A stretch of 64,000 nt of DNA from Octopus vulgaris. Lineage: Eukaryota. Below the pieces are notes generated by a model. It saw nothing but the letters and a program-made list of their open reading frames with translations. It did no database searches and was not told where the DNA came from. Position 1 is the stretch's first letter. Each line of letters opens with the position of its first letter. Of this stretch, positions 7,606 to 60,548 are shown in pieces. The stretch lies in assembly GCA_951406725.2 (NCBI GenBank), contig OX597823.1, positions 1,364,001 through 1,428,000 of the forward strand, in the 5' to 3' direction. The position numbers and the translations under genes were made by a program.

Positions 7606-8332
7606 TGTGTGTGTTACTCGTAATAGGAATAATGATTTCAATTCTAATAGTGCCAGCAACCCTGTACATAAAATAAATTCTTTACGGACTAGGGGAGGTA
7701 AGCGCCATGCAACCCCAAATTTCCAACCCAGAAATTTTACCCTTACTATCACAAACAACACTAAGAACAATTCAAAGGCCACAAAAAACTGTATCTGGTT
7801 TGTAATACCTTTCGGAAAACAAATTAAATCGAACCTTCCCTTATAGTTCCGTGAAGCCGTTGCTAGGAACTTTCCCAGAAATTCTAGATATCATTCTATT
7901 ATCAATTTCCACAAGGTCAGAATAGCTTTCTCTAACACTAGGAATCTTTCACAAATTATATCTTCCCACAATACCAAGCTGCTAAACAAAGATTCTTCAC
8001 CCGGGAGTTCCAATACTAATCTTGCTAATTCTAACCCATCATACAATCATAATAATAGGAATAGTATTAATAGTAGCAGCATTAGTAGCAGCGAAAGTGT
8101 TAACAATGATAATATTAATAATAGTATTAGTCGTGTTAATAACAATGGTAGTGTTGATGGTAACAACAATAACGGTATTATTGTCGGTGGTATTACTGGT
8201 TGTAATACCATTAATAATACTAATAATAATAGAAATAGTGTAGTTGGTAGCGCTAATAATAATAGTAACAACAATCATAACAATAAAAACTTCGTCTCGA
8301 TCTCGGAGGACAACCCCAACAGAATTAAATTT

Positions 8333-8722
8333 TTGTCTAGTAATTCTAAGATTAAGAATTCTATTTACCAGTGCATAATTTCTTCTGGTACCGATGTCTT
8401 CTATATAGGAGCGTCCACTTCCCAGTCATCCAAGAGAATTTCAAACCACTACTCAACATTCAGGCATAGTAAAAAACGACATAGCACAGGGCTAAGTAAA
8501 TTAGTTTGGCGTCTTAAAGACAACAATATAACTTTCAAGTTAGATTGGTTCATACTGTCTGTATCCTTTCCTTTTGATAAGGGCAGGAGATTTTGTAACA
8601 TTTGTAACTCTGAACTCTTCCATATTCTTTTCGCTAAGGTTCCCCTAGTAAACACACTCATAGAAAAATCGTACAAATGTAAACACTGGCAGAAACACAC
8701 TTTCTACTCATATAAAGGATAA
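8333..8722 (+). CDS. Penelope GIY-YIG endonuclease domain (C-terminal part of a disrupted PLE ORF)
   Basis: SIYQC...FYIGAS...KRISNH...STGLSKLVWRLKD...W.IL...CNICNSE...CKH. Confidence 0.85.
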   Translation: MSSNSKIKNSIYQCIISSGTDVFYIGASTSQSSKRISNHYSTFRHSKKRHSTGLSKLVWRLKDNNITFKLDWFILSVSFPFDKGRRFCNICNSELFHILFAKVPLVNTLIEKSYKCKHWQKHTFYSYKG

Positions 8723-9165
8723 CGATAGTCACTGTGGTTTGAACAATTAGCTTTACATCCACCCCACTGCTATAGAGAAATTCTTTCCTAAGCCTTCGAA
8801 CATTCTTTCAATCAACTTGTTCCCTGCCTATTATTCCTTTATACCTTCTCTTCCTACTATCTATCTTTGACGTCTGTCTCTCTCTCACACACACAATCAC
8901 ACACACAGACACAAATGCAGTTATACACACACATATACACAAACACAAACACACGCACCCATTAACACAAGCACACACCCACACATTTCCATACATACAG
9001 CAAACATACTGTTCCCTACCTATTATTACTTTATCCCTTCTCTTCCGACTATCTATTTTTGACGTCAATTCTTCTAACGGTTTTTTTAAAAAAACACTCA
9101 TTATCGCTTTGTTTACGATGTAGGCAATCATCGAAATTTTTGTTTGTCTTGTTGTCGAGAGAGGC

Positions 9166-9261
9166 TCCTTTTCTTTCCTGATGAGAAGATTGCATAATGC
9201 ACCCTTTATTCCTTTGGAATGAAAACATGCTGTCTTCGAAACATGTGTCGAGAGTAAAGGA
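9166..9261 (+). ncRNA. Type I hammerhead ribozyme
   Basis: Core CTGATGA (9178-9184), GAAA (9238-9241) and GTC (9247-9249). Stem II gaagattgcat/atgctgtcttc. Stem I tccttttctttc/gagagtaaagga. Confidence 0.88.
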
Positions 9262-9490
9262 ATTTTGTTAACATCTTCGTTCGACTCCTTTCATTTATTC
9301 ATATACAACACACAAATTTCTACACATGAACCCGGAGTTTCTACCCTTGACAGGTCGTTTCAACCGTGTTTTCTGACGTGAATTTGCTACCTAGGTTTCG
9401 GTTAAACGAATTTTCCATGCTGACGATAAACATGGGATAATTCATTCACCTACCTATATATATATATATATATAATATATATATATATAT

Positions 9491-11520: not shown

Positions 11521-12125
11521 GCAGATTTGTATGTTTTATGTATATAGTTACATATCAAGACATGCTCATAGATATTTAAATGATAAACTTCTGGAAAGTT
11601 TTACAGATTTGTACAATTCCAGTGATGGATTCGATCTGTAGTCTTCGAATTAGCTTTCTCTTTTCTGGTTTTGAGAAGCTTAATTTCTCAAGGCTGGTAT
11701 TTAGGCAGTGTGTTACATATCCCAGGGCCCCAATAATTACAGGTATAAACCTGAACTTGTAATATGGATAGAGTAACTGCAGACTTCTTAATAGTTCAGC
11801 ATAGGTGTTCTCTTTTTCACTGATCTTCAGCTTTATGTTAACATCCGCCGCGCAACTAATTTCCACAACTGCACACATTTTCTCATCTCTATCCCAAATC
11901 ATTACATCAAGTCTATTGTGTTTACATTTTATTGAGGTCTTTACTGGTACATTCCACCAGTAGTCCTCTTTATTATGAGTGGCTATGGCTTCTACCATAT
12001 TGTGGGTTTTTATCTCTTTGGACTCGGGATTATCCTTCCGATGGATTTCAATATAGAGTGTCCTAGCTACAACCTCATGTCTCATCGGTAGATAATACCA
12101 TGATGACATTGTCAGACAACTGCAC
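11521..12125 (-). mobile_element. 5'-truncated RLE-type (R4/NeSL-like) non-LTR retrotransposon, endonuclease domain plus 3' UTR
   Basis: ORF 11576-12109: RHEVV...WWN...HNRLD...VVEISC...EKENTY..L...FIPVIIGALG. The 3' end runs into (CATA)n. Confidence 0.88.
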
Positions 12126-12479
12126 CGGTTGTCACATTATACGGATGTGTGTATGTATGTATCTATGTACGCTATCCTGAAGTGTCATTGCGTCTGGTGT
12201 TTCTCTATTTTGCGGTTGTGTTCAATAAATGAGCAAACATTTTACGTGGATGTAATTCGTGTCTCAGCGCCGCTCATCCCAACGCGTCTTCGGTTTGCGT
12301 ATTTATTCATTTGCGTGGTTTTCTTGTTTTTGTTTGTGTCCTCGTGTACATGTGTCTGCGTTGTTGGTGAATATTTGCGTCCATATCTGTCGGTCCAAGC
12401 GTTTCTTGATCTCCTATGAAAGTATGAAGAAATGGAAAAGCATGTATGTATATTCTTGTATCTATAAGGTAGTGACAAT

Positions 12480-29829: not shown

Positions 29830-30000
29830 CGTTTTCTATTTTCTCTCTGTTTATTTCTGTGTTCCTTTCTGTTGAAGAGCGTAGGCTCGAAATGTAAAAG
29901 ACTCTCACTTCCCGAGCATTAAACTAATACATCTGTTTGTTGTTTACACACCAGTCTTCATCTTTTGTTTTGTTTTGCTTTTTTGGAAATTCCAACTATG
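29830..30000 (+). mobile_element. Second copy of the 23760-23910 repeat
   Basis: Direct sequence similarity. Confidence 0.75.
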
Positions 30001-30019
30001 TACGTATGTATGTATGTAT

Positions 30020-32750
30020 TATGTACGTTACCAATACCATGTTTCAACAAAAGAATAAGCTTAAGACTACATGGATGCACCCTGCATCTAAAGAATGGCA
30101 TATTCTGGATTACATCCTAGTTAGGGTGCGTGACAGTCAGGATGTGCAGTGTGTTCGTGTTCTTCGTGGAGCTGAGTGTTGGACTGACCACCGCCTAGTA
30201 CGTGCAAAAGTGAAATTAGTCACAAAACATAAAATCCGAGCTGCAGGGATGACCCTGCCTAAAAGACTGAATCTTGATCGTCTTAGGTATAATAGTGTGA
30301 AGAGAACTTTACGAGAGGAAATGAATGCTGCAGATATTGGGGAGGATTGGCCGGCCCTTAAAAAGTCAGTTTATGATATAGGCAAAAAAAGTTCTGGGAT
30401 TGATACAAAGAAAGCATCAATATTGGTTCAAAGAAAATGATGAACATAAAGATGGTTTATTGGCTGATAAAAGACGTACTTTGTCACGCTATTTGTCAGC
30501 AAAGTCACAGGAAAGGGAAGTGTTGCATAGGGAACTCAAGGACATAAAATCACGTGTGAGGCAAAGGCTCTCTCAGATGAGGGATACGTGGTGGAGTAAG
30601 AAGGCTGACGAGATACAGGCGGCATCAGATTCCAATAACACAAAGCTGTGGTATAGTCTCTTGCGAGAAGTTTATGGACCGACGTCTTCCCTGATGACAC
30701 CAATTCGAAGCAGGGATGGTAAAGAACTTCTTCGTGATTCACAAGGAATTCTGCGAAGGTGGCAAGGACATTTTGATGAACTTTTGAATCAGCATTCTGT
30801 AGTTAGTGAGGATGTTCTCAATCTCATCCCTGGATGGCCTGTGAAGGCAGCACTCGCAGAACCACCAAAGAAGTTGCAATGGCTGTCTCAAGGTTGAATA
30901 ATGGGAAGTCTCCGGGTATGGATGGCATACATGCGGAGTTGTTACCACATGGTGGTGAGAAAATTCTGCAGAAACTTCACTCTTTGTTTGGTATGGTATG
31001 GACTAGTGAATCTGTACCTGAAGACTGGAGAGATGCAGTAATGGTGGTCCTATATAAGGGTAAGGGCAACATTGTGGTAATTATAGGGGAATATCATTGC
31101 TGTCTGCTGTAGGAAAGGTTTTATGCAGGATACTTCTGGACCGTCTGCTGAAATACATTACTGATTGTGTTCTTCCAGAAAGTCAATTTGGCTTTCATGT
31201 GGGATGCGGCACTGCTGATATGATCTTTTCAGCTAGACAGCTTCAGGAAAAGTGTGTGGAACAGGGTCTGGATTTGTATCAGGTGTTTGTCGATCTGACA
31301 AAAGCCTTTGATACCGTCAATAGAAAAGCATTGTGGAAAGTCCTCCAGAAACTTGGGTGTCCTGAAAAGTTCCTTGCTTTGGTTAGGTCTTTTCATGAAG
31401 ACATTAATGGTAGGGTGAATGTTAGAGGGAAGATGTCGGAGCCCATTTCAATACAAAATGGAGTGAAACAGGGGGATATTCTGGCATCGACCCTATTTTC
31501 CATATATTTCGCGATGGTGTTCTGTATTGCATTCAGAGACTGCAGATACGGTTTTTACGTCCATTATCGAACCTCTGGCAGCATATTTAATATCAGGCGC
31601 CTTGCTGCAAAAACAAAGATATTTACCTCTATCATAAGAGACCTTTTGTATGCTGATGATTGTGAGCTAGTAGCACACACAGAGATTGATATGCAACACA
31701 TTTTGAATGCATTCTCTGATGCTTGCACTGCCTTAGGATTGACAGTCAATCTCAAGAAAACTGTTGTCATGCATCAACCTACCCCTAGTAAGCAGTATAG
31801 TGTACCAAATATCTATGTGAATAGTAAACGACTTGATGTAGTCGATCAGTTTGTCTACCTGGGAAGCACTATTAATAGATATGTCAATTTGGATGATAAA
31901 ATTCCATATAGAATTAGGAAAGCAAGTGTTGCTTTCGGAAGGCTAGAAAAGCGCCTCTGGAGTCGGCGAGACATGCAGAAAGACAAAGATAAAGGTGTAC
32001 AAGGCATGTGTGCTCCCTTCTCTTCTCTATGTCTGCGAGACGTGGGTCACATATCGATACCACCTTAAACATCTGGAACGTTTCCATCAGACGGATCTAT
32101 GGCATTAAGTGGAAGGACCGCATCAGTGATCTTGAAATATTGGAAGGCTCTCGGTGTGAAAGTATAGAAGCTCTTGTGTTAAAGCAAAGGCTCAGATGGA
32201 GTGGTCATCTGGTCTGGATGAAGGATTCAAGGATGCCAAAACAATTCTTTTTTGGAGAGTTAGCTAAAGGAGAACGACCTCCACATAAACCAAAAAAGAG
32301 GTATAAGGACTTGCTGAAGGCTTCCTTAAGAGATGCTTGCATCTCTCCTGACACATGGGAAGGCATAGCTATTGATCGTAGCAGGTGGAGAAGGATTGTG
32401 CATGAGGGGACAGCCACGTTTGAGAAATCTCGAGTTGCACATGAGAAAGTAAGGAGGGATGTCAGGAAGGGCATCGCTGTTAGACTTCCAGAAGGGAAGG
32501 GTCGTCCTTTGATTCTGACATGCAATGTCTGTGCAAGACCCTGCCTCGGTAAAACTGAACTCATGAGTCATCTTCGTAGTCATAAAACGAGACAGATGAG
32601 TGACAACCTGGCCACTGGTGGTGGTGTAACACACCATACTAATCATATCTGTCGGGCATGTGGAAGGGAGTGTAATTCGGCAGGAGGACTTAAACGACAT
32701 GCAAAGGTACATGAAGCCCAGTTACAACTACAGCCGGCTATTACCGGCTA
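30020..32750 (+). mobile_element. 5'-truncated RTE-clade LINE (end of APE, RT, two C-terminal C2H2 fingers), frameshifted
   Basis: TWMHP..ILDY..TDHRLV, KSPGMDGI, PESQFGF, FVDLTKAFD, GVKQG, LYADD, YLGS, RLRWSGH, CNVC..HLRSH and CRAC..HAKVH. Confidence 0.93.
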
Positions 32751-34572
32751 TGAATGTATGTATGTATGTATGTATGTATGTATGTATGTATGTATGTATG
32801 TATGTATGAATGTATGTATGAATGTATGTATGTATGTATGTATGTATGTATGTATGTATGTATGAATGTATGTATGTATGTATGTATGAATGTATGTATG
32901 TATGTATGTATGTATGTATGTATGTATGTATGTATGTATGTATGTATGTATGAATGTATGTATGTATGTATGTATGTATGTATGAATGTATGTATGTATG
33001 TATGTATGAATGTATGTATGCATGTATGTATGCATGTATGTATGTATGAATGTATGTATGTATGAAAATATGTATGTATGTATGTATGTATGTATGAATG
33101 TATGTATGTATGTATGTATGTGTGTATGTATGTATGTATGTATGTATGTATGTATGTATGTATGTATGTATGTATGTATGTATGTATGTATGTATGTATG
33201 TATGTATGTATGAATGTATGTATGTATGTATGTATGTATGTGTGTATGTATGAATGTATGTATGTATGTATGTATGTATGTATGAATGTATGTATGTATG
33301 TATGTATGTATGTATGTATGTATGAATGTATGTATGAATGTATGTATGTATGTATGTATGTATGTATGTATGTATGTATGTATGTATGTATGTATGTATG
33401 TATGTATGTATGTATGTATGTATGTATGTATGTATGTATGTATGTATGTATGTATGTATGTGTGTATGTATGTATGTATGTATGTATGTGTGTATGTGTG
33501 TATGTGTGTATGTATGTATGTATGTATGTATGTATGTATGTATGTATGTATGTATGTATGTATGTATGTATGAATGTATGTATGTATGAATGTATGTATG
33601 TGTGTATGTATGTGTGTATGTATGTATGTATGTATGTATGAATGTATGTATGTATGTATGTATGTATGTATGTATGAATGTATGTATGTATGTATGTATG
33701 AATGTATGTATGTATGTATGTATGTGTGTATGTATGTATGTATGTATGTATGTATGTATGTATGTATGTATGTATGTATGAATGTATGTATGAATGTATG
33801 TATGTATGTATGTATGTATGTATGTATGTATGTATGAATGTATGTATGTATGAATGTATGTATGTATGTATGTATGTGTGTATGTATGTATGTGTGTATG
33901 TATGTATGTATGTATGTATGTATGTATGTATGTATGAATGTATGTATGTATGTATGTATGTATGTATGTATGTATGTATGTGTGTATGTATGTGTGTATG
34001 TGTGTATGTATGTATGAATGTATGTATGTATGTGTGTATGTGTGTATGTATGTATGTATGTGTGTATGTGTGTATATGTGTATGTATGTATGTATGTATG
34101 TATGTATGTATGTGTGTATGTATGTATGTATGTATGTATGTATGTATGTATGTATGTATGTATGTATGTATGTATGTATGTATGTATGTATGTATGTATG
34201 TATGTATGTATGTGTGTATGTATGTATGTATGTATGTATGTATGTATGTATGTATGTATGTATGTATGTATGTATGTATGTATGTATGTATGTATGTATG
34301 TATGTATGTATGTATGTATGTATGTGTGTATGTGTGTATGTGTGTATGTATGTATGTATGTATGTATGTATGTATTGTGTATGTGTGTATGTGTGTATGT
34401 GTGTATGTATGTATGTATGTATGTATATATGTATGTATGTGTGTATGTATGTATGTGTGTATGTATGTATGTATGTATGTATGTATGTATGTATGTATGT
34501 ATGTATGTATGTATGTATGTATGTGTGTATGTATGTATGTATGTATGTATGTATGTATGTATGTATGTATGT
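32749..34572. repeat. About 1.8 kb (TATG)n array
   Basis: Directly visible, with GAAT and TGTG variants. Confidence 0.98.
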
Positions 34573-42000: not shown

Positions 42001-43666
42001 CACACATACATACATATACATACATATTCTTTTGCTAACGAAACCTCCTAAACAGTAAATGACGCATATATATTTATTTTCTAACGATTGTGGTGTGATC
42101 TGCACATCGTATCTGCATTCACATGGCGTTTTCTACATTTGATGTAGTCGTCAGTCTGCAGCAAGGGTCATAGTTTAGACAAACACTGTAGAAGATTAGT
42201 TAGAAAGATTCTGAGCGTACAGTGTTTGCTGACATTGTAACTGGCAGAAGAATTATTGAAATAGCTATCGGGAAGATAAATGTTGGTCGGAAGTTCTTTT
42301 GAACAAACAGGATGGTTCTAGAATCATACGATTCCCTCAGTAGAACATTCCCAGTGATGAAGAAACCGTAAAAGTCGAAAGAAAATTATCCTTGCATCTC
42401 AGCTTTGGAAGTTGCCTTCTGGGATAACAACGGGAGGAATGGAGAGAGATGGAGTAGTAGTCGGAGTTGGAAGAAGATGAGAGGGAGTAGGTGAGAGAGC
42501 GGGTGAAAGAGTGGAAGAAGTAGTGAAAGGGAGAGTGTGCGTGTAAATGGTGGATGGAGCTGTCAGAGGAGACGAAACAATAAAATGTTTAAAAATGGAT
42601 TTTTTTAAAGTGAGAAAGTTTTTTTATTGCATTTTTCTCTTTTAAAAATTCCCTCCCTCACCCTCTCTCTTTCCCTCCCCCTCCTCTGTTTCTCTCCTTC
42701 CTTCACCCTTTCTCCCTCACTTTCTCAATCTCTCTCTCTAGCCACTCTTTCTTCTTCCCTTCTTCCCCCCTCTCTTCCTCTCCTACTCCTTCCCAGTCTT
42801 TCTTTCCTCCTCTTTTCCTTTCTTTAAAATCTCAATCTTTCCTAAATTGCTCTCCTAAACAACTCTCCATACCGCAATCCTACTTTCACTTTCAACTCTC
42901 CAGATTTTCGCTTATTTCAATGATTCATTCTTTTTTTTTTAATTTCTCGACTTTCACTTCTCACTTTGGATTCCTTTCTTTCCTCGAGTATTCTTCACTT
43001 CTCCTCCTTCTAATCACCCTCTGTCTCTCTACCTGTCTCTCTCCTATTCATATTTTTTTCTATATTCTCAAATCTCAAATAAATAAATTTTATTCACACA
43101 CACCCATCCGTACCTTTGTATAAGTGCTTCCGACCCCATCCTTATTCTTAATCAAATACGATCTAATATCCTTTGGGATATTTATATTAAAACTGCGTAA
43201 TTCAACTCTAAATTAGAGAGTCGAAAGACTCATGAGTCCTTCTTTGATATAACTGGAAATATCTAATCTACGAGAAAGCATAGACTAATCATTTAGGTTC
43301 TTGTTTACGGATTATAGCTTATCCTATTTGTCAACAGAGCTTAACTAATATATTAACTTTCTCTTAGAGTGTGGTTATGGATGATTAGCTTTTTAATTAT
43401 TAAACCAATCTCATATTTTTGGAATTAATTCTCTTGTTGTCAAAAGTAATCTCTGTTCAGCTTCTAAGATCAACAGAATCGGAACCCAGCTCTGACTTTC
43501 GTATCGTTAATCCGGTTTGAAGTAACCTTTTATCTGGAAAATACTCTACATTATAAGAAATAGCATTCAGACAGAAGGAATTATATCTAACACGGCAAAT
43601 CATTTGGCAATGTCTTTATACCTTCTTATGGTACCTATACGCACAAAATATGGAGCCACTCGAGTT

Positions 43667-43677
43667 AACAAGAGACC
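43667..43677 (+). repeat. Left target-site duplication AACAAGAGACC
   Basis: Identical to 48022-48032. Confidence 0.9.
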
Positions 43678-44762
43678 TCAATAGTAAATTGTTTGGACAT
43701 ATCGGGGTTAGATAAGACTTCCTCCCAGTCGATCATTTTGATCGGGTGAGGCTTAGTTTTTTTGGATGAGCGAAGACTAAGCTTAACGGTAGCTGATACA
43801 ATTCTGTGGTCAGAGCCGACAGAACTAAAGGAAGAGTAGGATCTCGAGTCCTTAACACTATTGCGCCATTTCTTTCGAAAGATGAGGTAGTCAATTTGTG
43901 CCCTATCACCAAGTGGGGACTCAAATGTCCAAAGTTGACCTTTTGGTTTCATAAAAGAATTGTTGGAGGTGTAGAGATTAAATTCCTCCAAGAAGTCTTT
44001 GAGCATTTCTCCGTTCCGATTGGTTTTAGAGTTGAAAGTAAACTTGGTCTCATCGGGTCCTAGTCTAGCATTCAGATCACCAGCTATAACCAGAAAATTA
44101 TGGAGAGGTACTTGCTCAATGGTTGAACGAAGGGTTGTATAGAAATTTTCAATTTCGTCTGCCACAGACGAATTATGTGGGCTATATACACATACCAATG
44201 TTGTTTTTGGGTTTCCATCTATCTCAAGCACCATAATTCTAGGTGAAATTGACTCTATACTCAAGAGAGAATCACTGGCTTTTGATGAAAGTAGAAATCC
44301 AATACCTCCAACTGTTGAATTAACAGTATTCTTTGATGCTGAGGAGGTTACAAGTTGATAAGAACCGACTTGATGGTATTTGAGGATGTTGTCAGGGTGG
44401 TAAAATCGGTGTTCTTGGACCGCTATTATATCAATGCCATGTGATTCTGCATTTGCACCAAGTTCTTCTAGACGGCCAAGAGAGCCGAGGGTGCGGGCAT
44501 TGAGGGTGCTGAGTATCGTATGATTTTTACAGCTGATGAGGTGTTTGTTTGGTGTTGTTTGGTTGGGGGCTGACTCTTCTCCATCAGGTGATACCCGTCT
44601 GTTAAGATTGAGGGCATCACCGTCAATGGATGCCCTTGGAGGTGAAACATGATCAGAGACAGGACCCTGCAAAGCAGGGGCTGGACCTACATCCGCAGGT
44701 ATACCATTAGGTCTGGTTCCCTGGGGAAGAGGAACCCTGGTGCAGTTAATTGTAAATTCCAT
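43678..44762 (-). CDS. APE-type endonuclease half of the RTE ORF (uninterrupted)
   Basis: STLNARTL, IAVQEHR, VYSP, GDLNARLG, TNRNG, QIDY and SDH. The reading frame breaks off at KQFTIEV. Confidence 0.93.
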
Positions 44763-45429
44763 AGTCTTTTCAAATGGCTAATAATGTGTGCGCGCGCCAC
44801 TACTACACACATTGGAAAGCATTGTACAACCAAGTACTAAAGAAGATCTTTCCTCCTCCATGAAACAAAGCTGTTCCCGCTGGACGTCAACCCAGTACTT
44901 CTAAGCTACGGGCTGAGTGATTTATTGTAAGGTTATCTTCCTAGATAGATTGCCTTCACTACGGCTAAGGAGCCCTTTCTACCCCACTGACACAGGTTGT
45001 ACTGGTTTACAGTTTACCAGTAGTAGGATCCGATGCTGCATACAACAGACCTGACCTGACAAGATCGTTCAGAATTGGTTGAGCAATGGCATTAATGGGA
45101 AGGACAAGTGGGGGAGAGCCATTTAGTACTTCAATATTTGCGTCTGCGTATGTTTGTATAAGTATGAATAATGTGTTTATGTGCGAGAAGGCACATGCTT
45201 TTGTCTATCGTTAATTTAATTTAAATTTTTCTCACGTTTTTCCCTTTTAAAGTATTTCTTTTTAAAGTAATTTACACCCTGGAGGGAGGGCTGAGGGTTT
45301 GTTTTTACTGTAGATTCTCTTTTCTCCCAACAAAGAAAAAGAAAGGGATTTTTCATTGGTGTCACCGGTATAATTCAGACACGGGGAGAAACATCTCGAT
45401 GTCATTCAAACTTGTATGTTTCTAATTGT

Positions 45430-45461
<32 letters not shown>

Positions 45462-45957
45462 GTTCTGGCAGCAGCCGCAGCAATGCAGCAGCAACTACTG
45501 CTTTCGTAGGGTGAGAAGAAGAACGTTCGGTCAGAGAGAGTTCAAATGTCTGCTATATTGTTGATAGAACTTTCGAACATACGCTGACCTTGTTGATAGA
45601 ACTTTCGAACATACACTGACCTTGACTTGGAGACAAATCAAGGAGGGGCCGACTATGAACAGGACTTGTGAATAGAGTCGTGTACGAGCAGAGAGAAACT
45701 ATAAAGAGTATTTTTCTTTTTCCTTCTTATTCTCCACATGTTTTATTTCTGCGATTACAATAAAAGGTATGTTCGCATATTTCGGGTAGTCAAGAAGAAA
45801 ATAAAGGTTAGCAGGTGTTTACGTCCATAATTTTAGCGTGCATTTAATTGTGTTGTTACAATAAAGGCATTTTTACAAAATGTTCACACAAAAGATGGAA
45901 ATATTTATGTTTCTAAAATTTTGTCCCAAACTGTAGGTTTGTAAGTCTTTAACTTAT

Positions 45958-48009
45958 TTGAGGGAAATTCAATCTCTGTCTACTTCTGAAATAGATGCTG
46001 AGAACATTGAGGAAGTATACAGCAGCCTCATCAAATCAACAGAGGAGGTTGCACTGGCTACTCTTCCCAAAAGGAAGAGTAGGGGCCAGAGCAAACCTTC
46101 TAATTCCCCAAATGTCATCGAAGCCAGAAACCATCTAAAGTCTATATCACTAGCTTACCACCGTTCTCCATCCCAGTCACTGAAGATCCAACTCATAGCT
46201 GCCAGGAAGAATCTTGATGAGGCTTACTTGAACGCCGAGGTCGAATTTATCAATGGCAAAATTAGTAAACTATCGAAAGAGCACATTAGTAAAAAACACC
46301 ATCTCGCCTGGAAATCCATCAAAGACCTATCAGGCAAAAGTTCTGGGTCATCAATTAGAATTAAAGGGGGATCAGCTAAGAAGCGTTTAGAAAATTGGTC
46401 AACACATTTTAAAAACCTCCTTGGGAAGAATGCCAAAATCCCTGATAACCCCACTCTCCCAAGTGTGCCTATATCAGACACGCTGGACATCAACACCTCC
46501 CCTTTTACCATATTTGAACTAACAGCAGCCACCAAGCAACTAAAAGCCTCGAAAGCATTTGGTCCCGACAACATTCCGGCTGTGATTTGGAAGGATGATA
46601 GATTTCACACACTTTTGCTTAACCTCTGCAACCACACACTTTCCACCTTTGTCGCTCCAGAGATTTGGCACCAATCTCAAATCATTCCAATACCCAAAAA
46701 AGGCGATTTGTCCCTCGTCACCAACTACAGGGGCATATCTCTAATGTCAATTGCTGCAAAACTGTACAACAAACTGATCATAAATCGTCTTGTCCTTTTT
46801 GTTGAACCTTTGCTCCGAAAGAACCAAAATGGATTCAGACATGGGCGCTCAACGCTAAGCCAGATACTATGCCTGCGCAGACTTATTGAAGAATCAAAAG
46901 CATTTAATCGCGATCTTGCAATGGTATTTGTAGACTTTTCTAAAGCGTTCGATTCTTTAGATAGGTACAAGATGTTTGAAATCCTTAAGCTCTATGGGAT
47001 ACCAGACAAAATTATTTCTGCCATCAAGGTCCTCTACACAGATACGTCTTCAACCATCTTAACCCCTGATGGAGAAACATCATCTTTCTCGATCGAGGCC
47101 GGAATACTGCAGGGAGACACACTCGCCCCATTTCTTTTCATCATTGTTGTTGATTATGTACTACGTATGTCAGTTGATACCATCTCTGGCAAGGGCTTTG
47201 AAATAAAACCAAGAAGAAGTTCCAGACACCCAGCTGAGTACTTGACAGACACTGACTTTGCTGACGACATCGCTCTTATCAGTGATTCTCTCTCCAATGC
47301 CCAGTCTCTCTTACAATCTCTTGAACAAGCCTCAAATTGTGTAGGTCTTTACCTCAATGAGACCAAAACTGAATACATAAACAAGTGCCTGTCCAACAGT
47401 GATTGCATCATCCACACTCTCAACAGTGCACCTTTAAATATGGTTTCTGATTATAAATATCTTGGGTCATACATATCATCATCTGGAAAAGACTTTCTAA
47501 CTAGAAAGGGTATGGCCTGGTCAGCCTGTAATGACATGCATAAGATCTGGTCATCAAATCTAAGTAGAGACTTCAAACTTGAAATATTCAAATCCACAGT
47601 CGAACCAATCCTACTATATGACTCAGAAACCTGGACGTTATCAAAGAAGCTTGAGAGGCGGTTGGATGGAACCTACACTCGCCTCCTTATGAGAGCTCAA
47701 AATCTCTCGTGGAGGCGCCATCCAACTAAAATGCAAATATATGGGAAATTACCACCTGTGTCATCTCTTGTGAAAGGTAGGAGAGTCCAGTTTGCTGGAC
47801 ATTGTTGTAGAGCTGAAAAAGAAGTAATTTCTACTCTTCTCCTCTGGAAGCCATCTACTCGCAACACCAGAGGGCGCACACTCTCCTACCCTGATGTAAT
47901 CTCCAGGGATACAGGCATCCAGCAACAGGACCTCCGTAATGCTATGATGGACCGTGAAGTCTGGCGCAACATGGTAAATTCCATTGTCTCGACCACGGTC
48001 GAACAATGA
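45958..48009 (+). CDS. Reverse transcriptase half of the same RTE ORF (uninterrupted)
   Basis: KAFGPDNIP, NYRGISL, QNGFR, FVDFSKAFD, GILQGDTLAP, FADD, YLGS and FAGH. The annotated start is an artefact of the inversion junction. Confidence 0.95.
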   Translation: MREIQSLSTSEIDAENIEEVYSSLIKSTEEVALATLPKRKSRGQSKPSNSPNVIEARNHLKSISLAYHRSPSQSLKIQLIAARKNLDEAYLNAEVEFINGKISKLSKEHISKKHHLAWKSIKDLSGKSSGSSIRIKGGSAKKRLENWSTHFKNLLGKNAKIPDNPTLPSVPISDTLDINTSPFTIFELTAATKQLKASKAFGPDNIPAVIWKDDRFHTLLLNLCNHTLSTFVAPEIWHQSQIIPIPKKGDLSLVTNYRGISLMSIAAKLYNKLIINRLVLFVEPLLRKNQNGFRHGRSTLSQILCLRRLIEESKAFNRDLAMVFVDFSKAFDSLDRYKMFEILKLYGIPDKIISAIKVLYTDTSSTILTPDGETSSFSIEAGILQGDTLAPFLFIIVVDYVLRMSVDTISGKGFEIKPRRSSRHPAEYLTDTDFADDIALISDSLSNAQSLLQSLEQASNCVGLYLNETKTEYINKCLSNSDCIIHTLNSAPLNMVSDYKYLGSYISSSGKDFLTRKGMAWSACNDMHKIWSSNLSRDFKLEIFKSTVEPILLYDSETWTLSKKLERRLDGTYTRLLMRAQNLSWRRHPTKMQIYGKLPPVSSLVKGRRVQFAGHCCRAEKEVISTLLLWKPSTRNTRGRTLSYPDVISRDTGIQQQDLRNAMMDREVWRNMVNSIVSTTVEQ

Positions 48010-48021
48010 TGAATGATGATG

Positions 48022-48032
48022 AACAAGAGACC
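48022..48032 (+). repeat. Right target-site duplication AACAAGAGACC
   Basis: Immediately follows the LINE tail. Confidence 0.9.
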
Positions 48033-57885: not shown

Positions 57886-60548
57886 TAAAAAAACAAACAG
57901 TTCAACTCCGACCCCAAAAAGTTCTACCAAGAACTTGGCAAGAATAAAATAGACATCACTGCAGCACCAACGGCAGAAGAAGTGGAAGAATTCTGTAAAG
58001 AAATATGGTCGGCGAATGACAACCAAACAACAGGAGTATTAAAACAACAAACATAGCATCTGAGCAACTTTGGACCCCCATAACAACTGAAGAGCTCACC
58101 CAGGCACTGCGAAGACTAAGCAACTGGAAGGCACCTGGGCATGACAAGATCTCCAACTTCTGGTTGAAATATCTAACAGGAATGCACAAAAAGCTGGTTG
58201 AAAGCTTTAACAACATACTGGCAGAGCCAGAGACAATGCCTCAATGGCTCACGAAGAGGAAAACTATCTTAATTCCCAAATCAAATGAAACAGCAAAACC
58301 AGAAAACTACAGACCAATAACCTGTCTCCCTACAATATACAAGGAATTTACTGCAGTGATATCACAAAGATTAAACAAGCACCTGGACGAAAACAACCTG
58401 TTTCCAGAAGAGCAGAAAGGATGCCGCAAAGGCTCATATGGCTGTAAAGATCAACTAATGATCAATAAAGCCATTACTGAAGACAGCCACAGAAAGAAGA
58501 AAGGCCTCAGTATGGCCTGGATCGACTACAGAAAGGCGTTTGATAGCATCCCCCACACATGGATCCTCGAAACACTAGCCATTAACAAAGTAGCACCAAC
58601 AATCATAAAATTCATTGGGCACTCTATGAATAAATGGCAAACAGTGCTACAGCTCCAAACAAAAGAGGGACTCATGAAAACTAAAGCCATCCCCATTAGA
58701 AGAGGAATATTCCAGGGAGACACGCTCTCTCCACTCCTTTTCTGCTTGGCACTGTCACCTCTATCTGATATGCTAAATAGAACTGGATGCAGATATAAAT
58801 GTTACGGCAAAACGATCAACCACCTTTTATATATGGATGACTTAAAACTATACGCTGCAAATGACAAACAGCTGGAAACACTATTAAAGACAGTTCATGG
58901 ATTTACCAAAGAAATAGATATGGAATTTGGATTAGAGAAATGCGTCAAAGTAATCCTGAAAAGAGGAAACTAATTAAGAGTAGCAACATCATGCTAGATA
59001 AAACCAATGAAATAAAAGACTTAAACCAAAGCCAAACTTACAAATACTTAGGAATCCATGAACTAGATAAGACACAACACGCACAAATGAAAGAGAAAAT
59101 AAAGAAAGAATATTATAGACGAGTTAGATCAATACGAAAAACAAAGCCCAATGCTAAAAGCAAGATAATAGTTATTAACACTTTAGCTGTCCCAGTAATA
59201 AGTTATAGCTACAATATCCTTAACTGGACACTAAATGAACTGACCAAAATAGATAGGAAAACAAGAAAAATACTGACAAGATCTAGGATGCATCACCCAA
59301 AATCTGACATAGAAAGACTATATATACAACGTATAGAAGGTGGTAGAGGCCTTATACAGCTGGAAAACTACTATAAAATAACCACCATAGGACTTCAAAA
59401 ATATCTACTTCAGAAGGAAGGAAAACTGATACAAATAGCGGCAAAACACGAGCAAAACAAAAAACTGTTCTCAGTATTTAAGGAAGCTGACAAATACAAA
59501 CAAGAAATCATACCACCTAATAAATATGAAGAAGAAGAAGAAGAAGAAGAAGAAGAAGAAGAAGAAGAAGAAGAAGAAGAAGAAGAAGAAGAAGAAGAAG
59601 AAGAAGAAGAAGAAGAAGAAGAAGAAGAAGAAGAAGAAACAACAAAAGCTATAAAACAAATGAAATCCAAACTAAACCTAGAACAGCAAAGAACCATGAT
59701 AAAACGATGGCAAGAAAAGCCCCTTCATGACGAATACTGGACTAAACTAAATGCAAAAGAAATAGACAAAAAAAATCCCAGCAGTGGTTGAGAAGCTCAG
59801 GACTCAAAGCAGAGACAGAGGGATTTTTAATTGCAGCACAATACCAAAGCCTCCACCAGAAATTACCAAAAACATGTAATGAAAAGAAATATAACAAGTA
59901 ACTGCAGAATATGTGGAGATGGACAAGAAACAATAAATCATATTATCTCTGGCTGCCCAGTCCAGGCTAAGAAGGAATATATTCACAGACACGACAGAGT
60001 TGGGTGCTACATACACTGGAAGCTATGCCAACATTATGTAATAACAACAGAAAAAAGATGGTATAGGCACACACCAGAAAAGGTCACAGAAAACGAGAAA
60101 GCAACCATACTGTGGGATATGGCGATACACAACAGACCAGATATAGTTGTCAGAGATCATGAAGAAAAAGAAATGCATTCTAATTGATGTATCAATACCG
60201 GCAGATGACAACGTGTCTCTAAAAGAAATGGAGAAACTCTCAAAATACAAAGACCTGGAAATAGAGGTAACTAGAATGTGGAATCTGAAAACAGAAACAA
60301 TTCCTATCATAGTAGGTGCATTAGGCATGATAAAAAAATATTCAGACAAATACATAACAAAAACACCAGGACTTACAAACACATATAACATACAGAAAAT
60401 TGCACTACTAGGCACTGCACACATCCTACGCAGAACACTTTCCATACAATAACCATCAGAGCATCAAACAAGTCACAGCACATACCTAAGGCACACAGAG
60501 CTGCGCTCGGTAGTGAAGTGAAAGCACGCTATAAAGAATATACTACTG
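57880..60548 (+). mobile_element. R4/Dong-like element B (RT, CCHC, RLE), 5'-truncated and frameshifted
   Basis: NWKAPG, NYRPITCL, EQKGC, AWIDYRKAFD, GIFQGD, LYMDD, YKYLG, GGRGL, C..C..H...C, RHD, NRPD and GTAHILR. (AAT)n tail. Confidence 0.95.
59528..59638 (+). repeat. (GAA)n of about 37 units, in frame within the Dong ORF
   Basis: Poly-Glu run in ORF 58940-59791. Confidence 0.97.

What the first reader, a model, noticed from the sequence alone, without database searches (positions are those of the whole stretch)
45065..45960. About 0.9 kb of extra sequence carried inside the TSDs: candidate 5' transduction
Seen: this segment lies between the apparent RTE 5' start (caggtcaggtctg at about 45060, minus) and the inversion junction. 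It looks like ordinary genomic DNA, with a (CAG)n tract at about 45430 and A/T runs. In twin-priming geometry it corresponds to the extreme 5' end of the copied RNA. Inference: the donor copy was transcribed from an upstream host promoter, so host flanking DNA was moved with the element. This would tag the source locus.
Basis: partly seen in the sequence, partly recalled or inferred. Interest (0 to 1): 0.75.

Follow-up and report, generated by a model that had tools for sequence, protein, structure and literature searches.

The report
Inverted retrotransposon carrying extra upstream DNA
A jumping-gene copy in this animal genome landed with its front half flipped and brought along about 0.9 kb of extra DNA; this is probably neighbouring host DNA copied with it, a known kind of accident, but it could be an unusually long leader of the element itself.

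Summary
The anatomy is real. An RTE-clade LINE (one ORF, about 1,046 aa, no internal stops) is split at one point: its 5' half is inverted (43678-44762, minus), its 3' half is forward (about 45968-48021), and an 11-bp target-site duplication (43667-43677, 48022-48032) brackets everything. Five bases of complementarity at the internal priming site and a 5-9 nt internal loss fit twin priming. The 0.9-kb segment (about 45059-45964) lies inside the duplication, so it arrived with the insertion. It is non-coding, host-like in GC and CpG, and single-copy in the window. Its origin is not settled. The element's 5' start near 45058 was picked by eye and could not be confirmed: no same-family DNA was reachable and no ribozyme was found. 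A sister RTE family shows that host-looking DNA is no proof: 3 of 4 copies share an AT-rich leader beyond a 210-nt core. My odds: host-derived 5' transduction 0.5, family-wide long leader 0.33, template capture 0.1. Both mechanisms are well known for human L1. I found no report of them together in an RTE element. Moderate interest; one genome BLAST decides it.

The parts
43667..43677 (+). Left target-site duplication, 11 bp; its last 5 bases (43673-43677) continue the element's reading frame on minus (inferred internal-priming complementarity)
43678..44762 (-). Inverted 5' part of the RTE ORF: ATG at 44760-44762, AP-like endonuclease domain, 361 aa without a stop, ending at ...KQFTI
44763..45058 (-). 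Proximal 5' UTR, about 296 nt, GC 0.45, CpG o/e 0.54; upstream limit set by eye, not by family alignment
45059..45964 (-). The extra segment, about 905 nt: non-coding (longest stop-free frame 89 aa), GC 0.38, CpG o/e 0.77, no second copy in the window; 5'-most part of the copied RNA under twin priming
45430..45460 (+). (AGC)10.3 microsatellite inside the segment; two other CAG/CTG tracts of 6 or more units lie elsewhere in the window
45558..45624 (+). 32-bp tandem duplication (2.1 copies, 97% match) inside the segment
45965..45969 (.). Inversion junction; the forward piece starts at 45965 (with a 1-nt loss) or 45968; 5-9 nt of ORF are missing between the two halves
45970..48009 (+). Forward 3' part of the RTE ORF, 679 aa to the stop, reverse transcriptase domain, up to 83% identical to relatives
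48010..48021 (+). Very short 3' UTR made of TGA/ATG triplets, the RTE-type microsatellite tail
48022..48032 (+). Right target-site duplication, 11 bp

Best explanation
A young RTE LINE inserted here by target-primed reverse transcription with twin priming, from an RNA that began at least 1.2 kb upstream of the ATG. Step 1 (shown): staggered nicks 11 bp apart gave the duplication. Step 2 (shown): one cDNA was primed at the triplet tail and copied about 2.05 kb. Step 3 (inferred): the other nicked end paired over about 5 bases with the RNA inside the ORF and copied towards the RNA's 5' end. Step 4 (inferred from geometry): that cDNA ran through the 296-nt proximal UTR and a further 905 nt, and the two cDNA ends were joined with loss of 5-9 nt. 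Step 5 (inferred, the open one): the extra 905 nt are host DNA that lay upstream of the donor copy, or of a recent ancestor of it, and were transcribed from a host promoter into the element, so this is a 5' transduction confined to this donor or a small sub-lineage. Steps 1-4 I put at about 0.85; the confidence given is for the whole chain including step 5.
For: Duplication: 11 bp, unique, at both exact ends; RTE duplications are mostly 7-15 bp, 10-12 commonest, and often start with A in animals (PMC6007223, passages). Single break: 53 of 54 scored relatives (of 250 proteins on hand; filter 65% identity and coverage of both break ends) have exactly six residues between the halves; V is second in 54 of 54 and the third residue has a T-initial codon in 51 of 54, which puts up to five element-matching bases in the end of the left duplication, three of them fixed by the protein. 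Host-like features of the segment: CpG o/e 0.77 (24 seen, 31.2 expected), P=0.03 under the element's 0.50, about 6 times likelier under the host's 0.82 on a Poisson model; dinucleotide log-odds -0.026, host -0.032 +/- 0.020; a microsatellite of a kind the host has elsewhere. Contigs of 32 near relatives with whole ORFs have median length 3,547 nt, close to 3,453 predicted without the segment; 3 of 32 reach 4,300 (4,353 predicted with it). Some RTEs are transcribed from host promoters (Perere-3, PMC8501958, passages), and no trimming ribozyme was found here.
Against: No donor locus, second copy or empty allele was seen; no genome was reachable. The element's 5' end is unproven. In a sister RTE family (about 40% aa identity; L002, L003 twice, L005) 3 of 4 copies share an AT-rich leader (GC 0.33-0.35) beyond a 210-nt core, two of them out to about 780-870 nt before the ATG (local score 133, best of 200 shuffles 32), so host-like looks are no proof. 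The segment's strand skews match the ORF's (AT +0.054, GC -0.165, against +0.06 to +0.09 and -0.14 to -0.16); 23 of 88 host chunk-strands share both signs and 6 of 88 pass thresholds chosen afterwards. The CpG argument is weak: host 900-nt chunks range from 0.30 to 1.20, and the sister leader does not match its own ORF either. The contig-length test is weak, since a diverged leader would not assemble. 5' transductions are rare in human L1: 466 of 5,311 insertions carry any transduction, 82.2% of them 3' (PMC12350158, passages).
Confidence: 0.5

Rival explanations
1. The segment is the distal part of the family's own long 5' leader (about 1.2 kb in all), shared by most full-length copies. The copy is then an ordinary near-full-length twin-primed RTE with nothing transduced in this event; the leader may itself be an old captured flank.
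For: Sister family with the same two-tier layout, a GC-45% core and an AT-rich extension with staggered 5' ends (one copy bounded by its duplication at -208, others reaching about -470, -780 and -870 from the ATG). Strand skews like the ORF's. Long RTE leaders are in print: about 600 nt in RTE-2_OV (PMC9115989 section 6); Repbase RTE lengths of 3,228-4,296 nt in the tables of PMC5786205. It needs no rare event.
Against: CpG o/e differs from the rest of the element (0.77 against 0.50-0.54); a host-type microsatellite; 29 of 32 near-relative contigs are under 4,300 nt; no similarity to the sister leader (scores 28 and 29, shuffle maxima 36 and 31), though none is expected at that distance.
Confidence: 0.33
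2. The segment came from an unrelated RNA or DNA joined at the junction: a template jump or RNA ligation at the element's 5' end, trans-splicing, or a DNA patch captured during repair. It would then not mark the donor.
For: Known for L1: 22 templated insertions in a tumour set (bioRxiv 2024.08.27.596794, passages); 17 mRNA or lncRNA fusions to near-full-length L1, at least one with no L1 at the source gene (bioRxiv 2025.02.02.635956 section 24). The segment sits where the two cDNA ends must be joined.
Against: The L1 templated insertions are typically under 250 bp and come from within 15 bp of the site; this one is 905 nt with no match in the 64-kb window (best hit 20 nt, E 0.17). No poly(A) or RNA-family match at either end.
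Confidence: 0.1
3. The segment is native to this locus or arrived later: a genomic inversion flipped upstream flank together with half of an ordinary insertion, a second element inserted at the junction, or the assembly is chimeric.
For: Host-like composition; raw reads were not available to exclude a mis-join.
Against: A flipped native flank needs the duplication's complement beside the element's 5' end; the best shared words there are 5-6 nt, while the outer 11-bp repeat is exact. Undoing the inversion still leaves the segment inside the duplication. No terminal repeat above 6 nt at the segment's ends. The two ORF halves meet within 5-9 nt, which a mis-join or two independent copies would not give.
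Confidence: 0.07

Closest known systems
Human L1 and SVA 5' transductions (for example the 8q21.11 source L1 and SVA-F1/MAST2; PMC12350158, passages)
   Same: Non-element DNA upstream of a full-length LINE, inside one target-site duplication; explained by an upstream host promoter; can become heritable in a subfamily.
   Different: RTE clade, single ORF, triplet tail instead of poly(A); the donor is not identified here; the L1 cases often splice an exon into the element, and no such junction is shown here.
Twin-primed, 5'-inverted L1 insertions (bioRxiv 2024.08.27.596794 and PMC12016303, passages)
   Same: Order duplication - inverted 5' part - forward 3' part - tail - duplication; short complementarity at the internal primer; small internal deletion.
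   Different: Not L1. In cultured cells inversions were seen only with L1 in human cells apart from one Nimb-2 insert (PMC4245944, passages; RTE was not tested there). The inverted arm (2.29 kb) is longer than the forward arm (2.05 kb), whereas in L1 the forward arm averages 2.6 times longer, and here it seems to reach the RNA's 5' end.
RTE-clade LINEs (RTE-1, SR3/Perere-3, octopus RTE-2_OV)
   Same: One ORF of about 1,050 aa with endonuclease and RT, very short 3' UTR of short repeats, 11-bp duplication starting with A.
   Different: No C2H2 finger and 1,046 against 1,109 aa, so not RTE-2_OV; no match to the variant positions of the O. bimaculoides RTE consensus in a limited by-eye test; no twister or HDV-like ribozyme detected, unlike Perere-3.
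L1/mRNA 5' chimeras (bioRxiv 2025.02.02.635956 section 24)
   Same: Unique sequence fused to the 5' end of a near-full-length LINE inside one duplication.
   Different: Those map to first exons and that screen excluded inverted copies; this segment has not been mapped to any gene.

Membership tests
RTE-clade non-LTR retrotransposon | Single ORF with AP-like endonuclease then RT, about 1,000-1,100 aa | tested here: met
   Pfam PF03372/PF14529 and PF00078; 361 + 6 + 679 = 1,046 aa; relatives of 1,040-1,050 aa span both halves
RTE-clade non-LTR retrotransposon | Very short 3' UTR of tri- to pentanucleotide repeats | tested here: met
   12 nt of TGA/ATG triplets after the stop; clade feature per PMC1291365 passages
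RTE-clade non-LTR retrotransposon | RT groups with named RTE references in a tree | not tested
All close hits are unnamed; no named reference was at hand.
TPRT insertion | Target-site duplication of clade-typical length at both outer ends | tested here: met
   11 bp, exact, unique; clade mode 10-12 bp
Twin-primed 5' inversion | Inverted 5' part next to the upstream duplication, forward 3' part, breakpoints nearly abutting | tested here: met
   5-9 nt missing between the halves
Twin-primed 5' inversion | Complementarity between the end of the duplication and the internal RNA site | tested here: inconclusive
   Up to 5 nt fit; 3 are fixed by conserved residues and 2 are wobble positions that need family DNA
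5' transduction | Extra sequence lies inside the duplication, 5' of the element in RNA sense | tested here: met
5' transduction | Extra sequence is absent from the family consensus | tested here: inconclusive
   No family DNA; indirect contig-length and composition tests point both ways
5' transduction | Extra sequence maps directly upstream of a donor copy elsewhere in the genome | not testable with these tools
   No eukaryotic genome collection; none in the window
5' transduction | A host transcription start upstream of the donor | not testable with these tools
   Needs CAGE or RNA data; the only promoter scan offered is bacterial and gave 3 sites against 2.7 expected
Ribozyme-headed RTE (Perere-3 type, HDV-like type) | Self-cleaving ribozyme at the element's 5' end | tested here: not met
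   0 of 11 Rfam matches are ribozymes and none reaches a gathering score; 0 descriptor hits (descriptor written from recall, no positive control); fold z-score -0.44

The most novel reading that the evidence does not exclude
This RTE lineage has neither a promoter nor a trimming ribozyme, so full-length copies are made from host promoters and routinely carry upstream host DNA, which descendants inherit as new leaders. The shared AT-rich leader of the sister family would be an older round of the same process. RTE copies in this genome would then carry source-tracing barcodes and shuffle host regulatory or exonic DNA, here through twin priming in a non-L1 clade.
Probability: 0.2. Interest if true: 0.62.

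Novelty: new member of a known kind. Interest (0 to 1): 0.33.

Why it matters
If the segment is transduced flank, it names the parent copy of a young, still-open RTE and shows that the parent is driven by a host promoter. That bears on whether full-length LINEs in such genomes are active and how they are expressed, a question raised for octopus RTEs (PMC9115989). It would also extend two L1 hallmarks, twin priming and 5' transduction, to the RTE clade in an invertebrate. If it is the family's own leader, the gain is smaller: a truer 5' end for the consensus and one clean RTE twin-priming example. It is a single dead copy either way.

Tried and rejected
Second copy of the segment or the family in the window: none. 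Bacterial and archaeal genome collection: the first scan found no relative among 196 candidate stretches; the second gave 19 loci from 48 stretches, the longer matches at 24-47% identity, none with DNA similarity to the 5' region (best E 0.039). Plasmid collection: no match. Ribozyme marking the 5' end: none; a by-eye HDV/twister-like pairing near 44940-45025 failed the descriptor and was dropped. Identity with the polymorphic O. bimaculoides RTE: 27 variant positions from a published VCF, checked by eye at 4 candidate offsets, gave chance-level agreement; the test fails if one codon differs, so it is weak. Three short window motifs in the supplements of PMC9115989: 0 hits, but the RT control also missed, only 4.1 million characters of files 1-4 were searched, files 5-8 were not searched and two more are too large, so it is uninformative. 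Coding role for the segment: the 89-aa frame gave one weak repetitive hit (E 1.3e-4, 25% identity, 7 stretches), not pursued; the other ten frames of 40 aa or more were not searched. An older repeat spanning the empty site, which would confirm it independently: none found. Later insertion with its own terminal repeats, and post-insertion inversion of native flank: rejected. No inverted copy was seen among the 10 sister-family pieces. DNA around the closest relatives (83% aa) sits in metagenome contigs that were not available, so their 5' ends stayed unchecked. No structure or complex prediction was run, as none bears on the question.

Full report
Verdict. Whether it is transduced host flank is open: I put it at about 0.5, against 0.33 for a long leader belonging to the family. 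Both mechanisms involved are known from human L1.

Setting. The window is AT-rich animal DNA full of microsatellites (124 Tandem Repeats Finder rows) with several LINE relics. It resembles an octopus genome; that is my recollection and comes from no call. I used octopus papers only as context.

The element. Two frames belong to one ORF. The minus-strand frame starts at ATG 44760-44762 and runs 361 aa without a stop, matching Pfam Exo_endo_phos; the plus-strand frame from 45970 runs 679 aa to a stop at 48007-48009 and matches RVT_1. Unnamed relatives of 1,040-1,050 aa cover both halves in order at up to 79-84% identity. The stop is followed by 12 nt of TGA/ATG triplets, the RTE-type tail (PMC1291365, passages). 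The RTE label rests on this architecture; I built no tree with named references.

The duplication. An exact 11-mer lies at 43667-43677, where the inverted frame ends, and at 48022-48032, right after the tail; it occurs nowhere else in the window on either strand. Chance is about 1.6e-7 at a fixed place, or 1.4e-4 with 30 x 30 offsets; counting only the six bases not explained by the element, 2.8e-4. RTE duplications are mostly 7-15 bp, commonest at 10-12, and often start with A in animals (PMC6007223, passages).

The inversion. Of 250 proteins on hand, 54 passed a filter of 65% identity and coverage of both break ends; 53 of the 54 have six residues between the halves, of the pattern [EDQ]-V-[YF]-N-[KR]-F. 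Read on minus, the window's frame continues into the last five bases of the left duplication as E-V plus the first base of the next codon. V is invariant (54 of 54) and that next codon starts with T in 51 of 54, so three of the five bases are fixed by the protein and two are wobble. The forward half resumes at 45965 or 45968, so 5-9 nt are lost. This is the twin-priming pattern described for L1, where the second DNA end pairs inside the RNA and small internal deletions are common (bioRxiv 2024.08.27.596794, passages). Even if the inversion came later, undoing it leaves the segment between the two 11-mers. A flipped native flank is excluded because no complement of the duplication lies beside the element's 5' end (best words 5-6 nt).

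The segment. It spans about 45059-45964. It has no second copy in the window (best hit 20 nt, E 0.17), no terminal repeats above 6 nt, no Rfam match at gathering score, no plasmid match, and 11 stop-free frames of 40-89 aa, of which the longest gave one weak repetitive hit. GC is 0.378 and CpG o/e 0.77; masked host DNA has 0.388 and 0.82, the element 0.43-0.45 and 0.50-0.54.

The weak link is the element's 5' end. The quoted motif starts at 45058, but nothing ties it to the family's start. No ribozyme marks it (my descriptor had no positive control), though some RTEs have one (PMC5786205, passages citing Ruminski 2011; that paper itself was not held; Perere-3, PMC8501958, passages). A dinucleotide score shows no sharp step.

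Evidence for host origin. The CpG count is about 6 times likelier under the host ratio on a Poisson model, less given the spread of host chunks (0.30-1.20, n = 44). CAG tracts occur elsewhere in the host. Contigs of 32 near relatives with whole ORFs have median 3,547 nt, near the 3,453 predicted without the segment; 24 of 32 are at most 3,750 and 3 of 32 reach 4,300 (lengths typed from those calls).

Evidence against. The second genome scan returned contigs filed under bacterial bins that are evidently animal DNA. L002, L003 and L005 hold four near-full-length copies of a sister RTE family about 40% identical in protein. One is bounded by its duplication 208 nt before the ATG; the other three share an AT-rich extension, one to about -470 and two to about -780 to -870. 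The far block scores 133 against at most 32 in 200 shuffles, has GC 0.33-0.35, long A runs and an internal duplication, and the 3' flanks differ. So an RTE leader can look exactly like ordinary DNA, and a diverged leader would also escape the contig-length test. The window segment's strand skews match the ORF's; 23 of 88 host chunk-strands share both signs, 6 of 88 pass thresholds set afterwards. RTE-2_OV has a 5' UTR of about 600 nt (PMC9115989 section 6). In human L1, 466 of 5,311 insertions carry a transduction and 82.2% of these are 3' (PMC12350158, passages), so the prior is low. These lines roughly cancel; the odds given are my judgement.

Mechanism. Shown: staggered nicks, tail-primed forward cDNA, one break, segment inside the duplication. 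Inferred: internal priming over about 5 bases; extension through the UTR into the segment; end joining. Least certain: the segment was upstream host DNA read from a host promoter, in this donor or a recent ancestor. A template jump, ligation or trans-splice is a smaller rival: L1 templated insertions are typically under 250 bp and local, while L1/mRNA 5' chimeras without a donor L1 exist (bioRxiv 2025.02.02.635956 section 24).

Novelty. It works like an L1 5' transduction with twin priming; membership among 5' transductions is not established, because the donor test could not be run. One cell-culture study saw inversions only with L1 in human cells apart from one Nimb-2 insert (PMC4245944, passages). 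My searches listed no report of twin priming or 5' transduction in an RTE element or a cephalopod. They are weak: the phrase with the prime sign could not be matched (0 occurrences), I read mostly listings, and subscription papers are not held. Other papers seen: PMC12016303, PMC11203168 and PMC5389967 as passages; PMC13282606 as abstract, data statement and supplement list; PMC9115989 also as passages, section 8 and parts 1-2 of 13 of one supplement. Ostertag and Kazazian 2001 was seen only as a reference. Unseen supplements and the Zenodo repeat library may already hold this family's consensus and settle the 5' end.

Scores. Interest 0.33: a clean, checkable case in a new clade, but one copy, with an ordinary explanation nearly as likely.

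Noticed in passing
L003:4100-4983 and 8906-9377, L005:4100-4883, L002:4671-4890: A sister RTE family has a conserved 210-nt 5' core and a shared, fast-diverging AT-rich extension of up to about 600 nt with staggered 5' ends; a long leader or an inherited old transduction.
   Followed up: partly
L002-L005, L015, L016 (records CAXXGD010000061, CAXXGD010000016, CAXXGD010000052, CAXXMW010000018): Contigs filed under bacterial genome bins look like animal DNA: microsatellites and several RTE copies with triplet tails. Likely host contamination of species-representative genomes.
   Followed up: partly
window 45431-45515 (+): An acceptor-like site before the CAG tract and the segment's only donor-like word at 45509 could bound an 80-nt exon open in two frames, antisense to the element; well within chance in 900 nt.
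   Followed up: partly
window 45622, 45590, 45057 (-): Three AGGTCA hexamers on the element's sense strand, two from the 32-bp duplication and one at the apparent 5' start; 23 in the whole window. A nuclear-receptor half-site by recall; probably chance.
   Followed up: no
window 43678-48009: The element is CpG-poor (o/e 0.50) against its host (0.82), and its best relatives (83% aa) are unnamed sequences with no named animal protein among the top 120 hits; a hint of a different past host, untested.
   Followed up: no
window 29928-32865 (+): A second, frameshifted RTE-like LINE with RT and a C2H2-like C-terminus running into a long (TATG)n array; the layout recalls RTE-2_OV.
   Followed up: no
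window 58020-59791 (+) and 11576-12136 (-): An RT relic interrupted by a (GAA)37 tract, and a separate piece that by recall resembles the C-terminal endonuclease region of R4/Dong-type elements; Pfam confirmed only the RT.
   Followed up: no
window 7847-8722 (+) and 43050-43600 (-): Degenerate frames that by eye resemble Penelope-like element pieces; no Pfam match for the first, the second (left flank of the insertion) was not searched.
   Followed up: no
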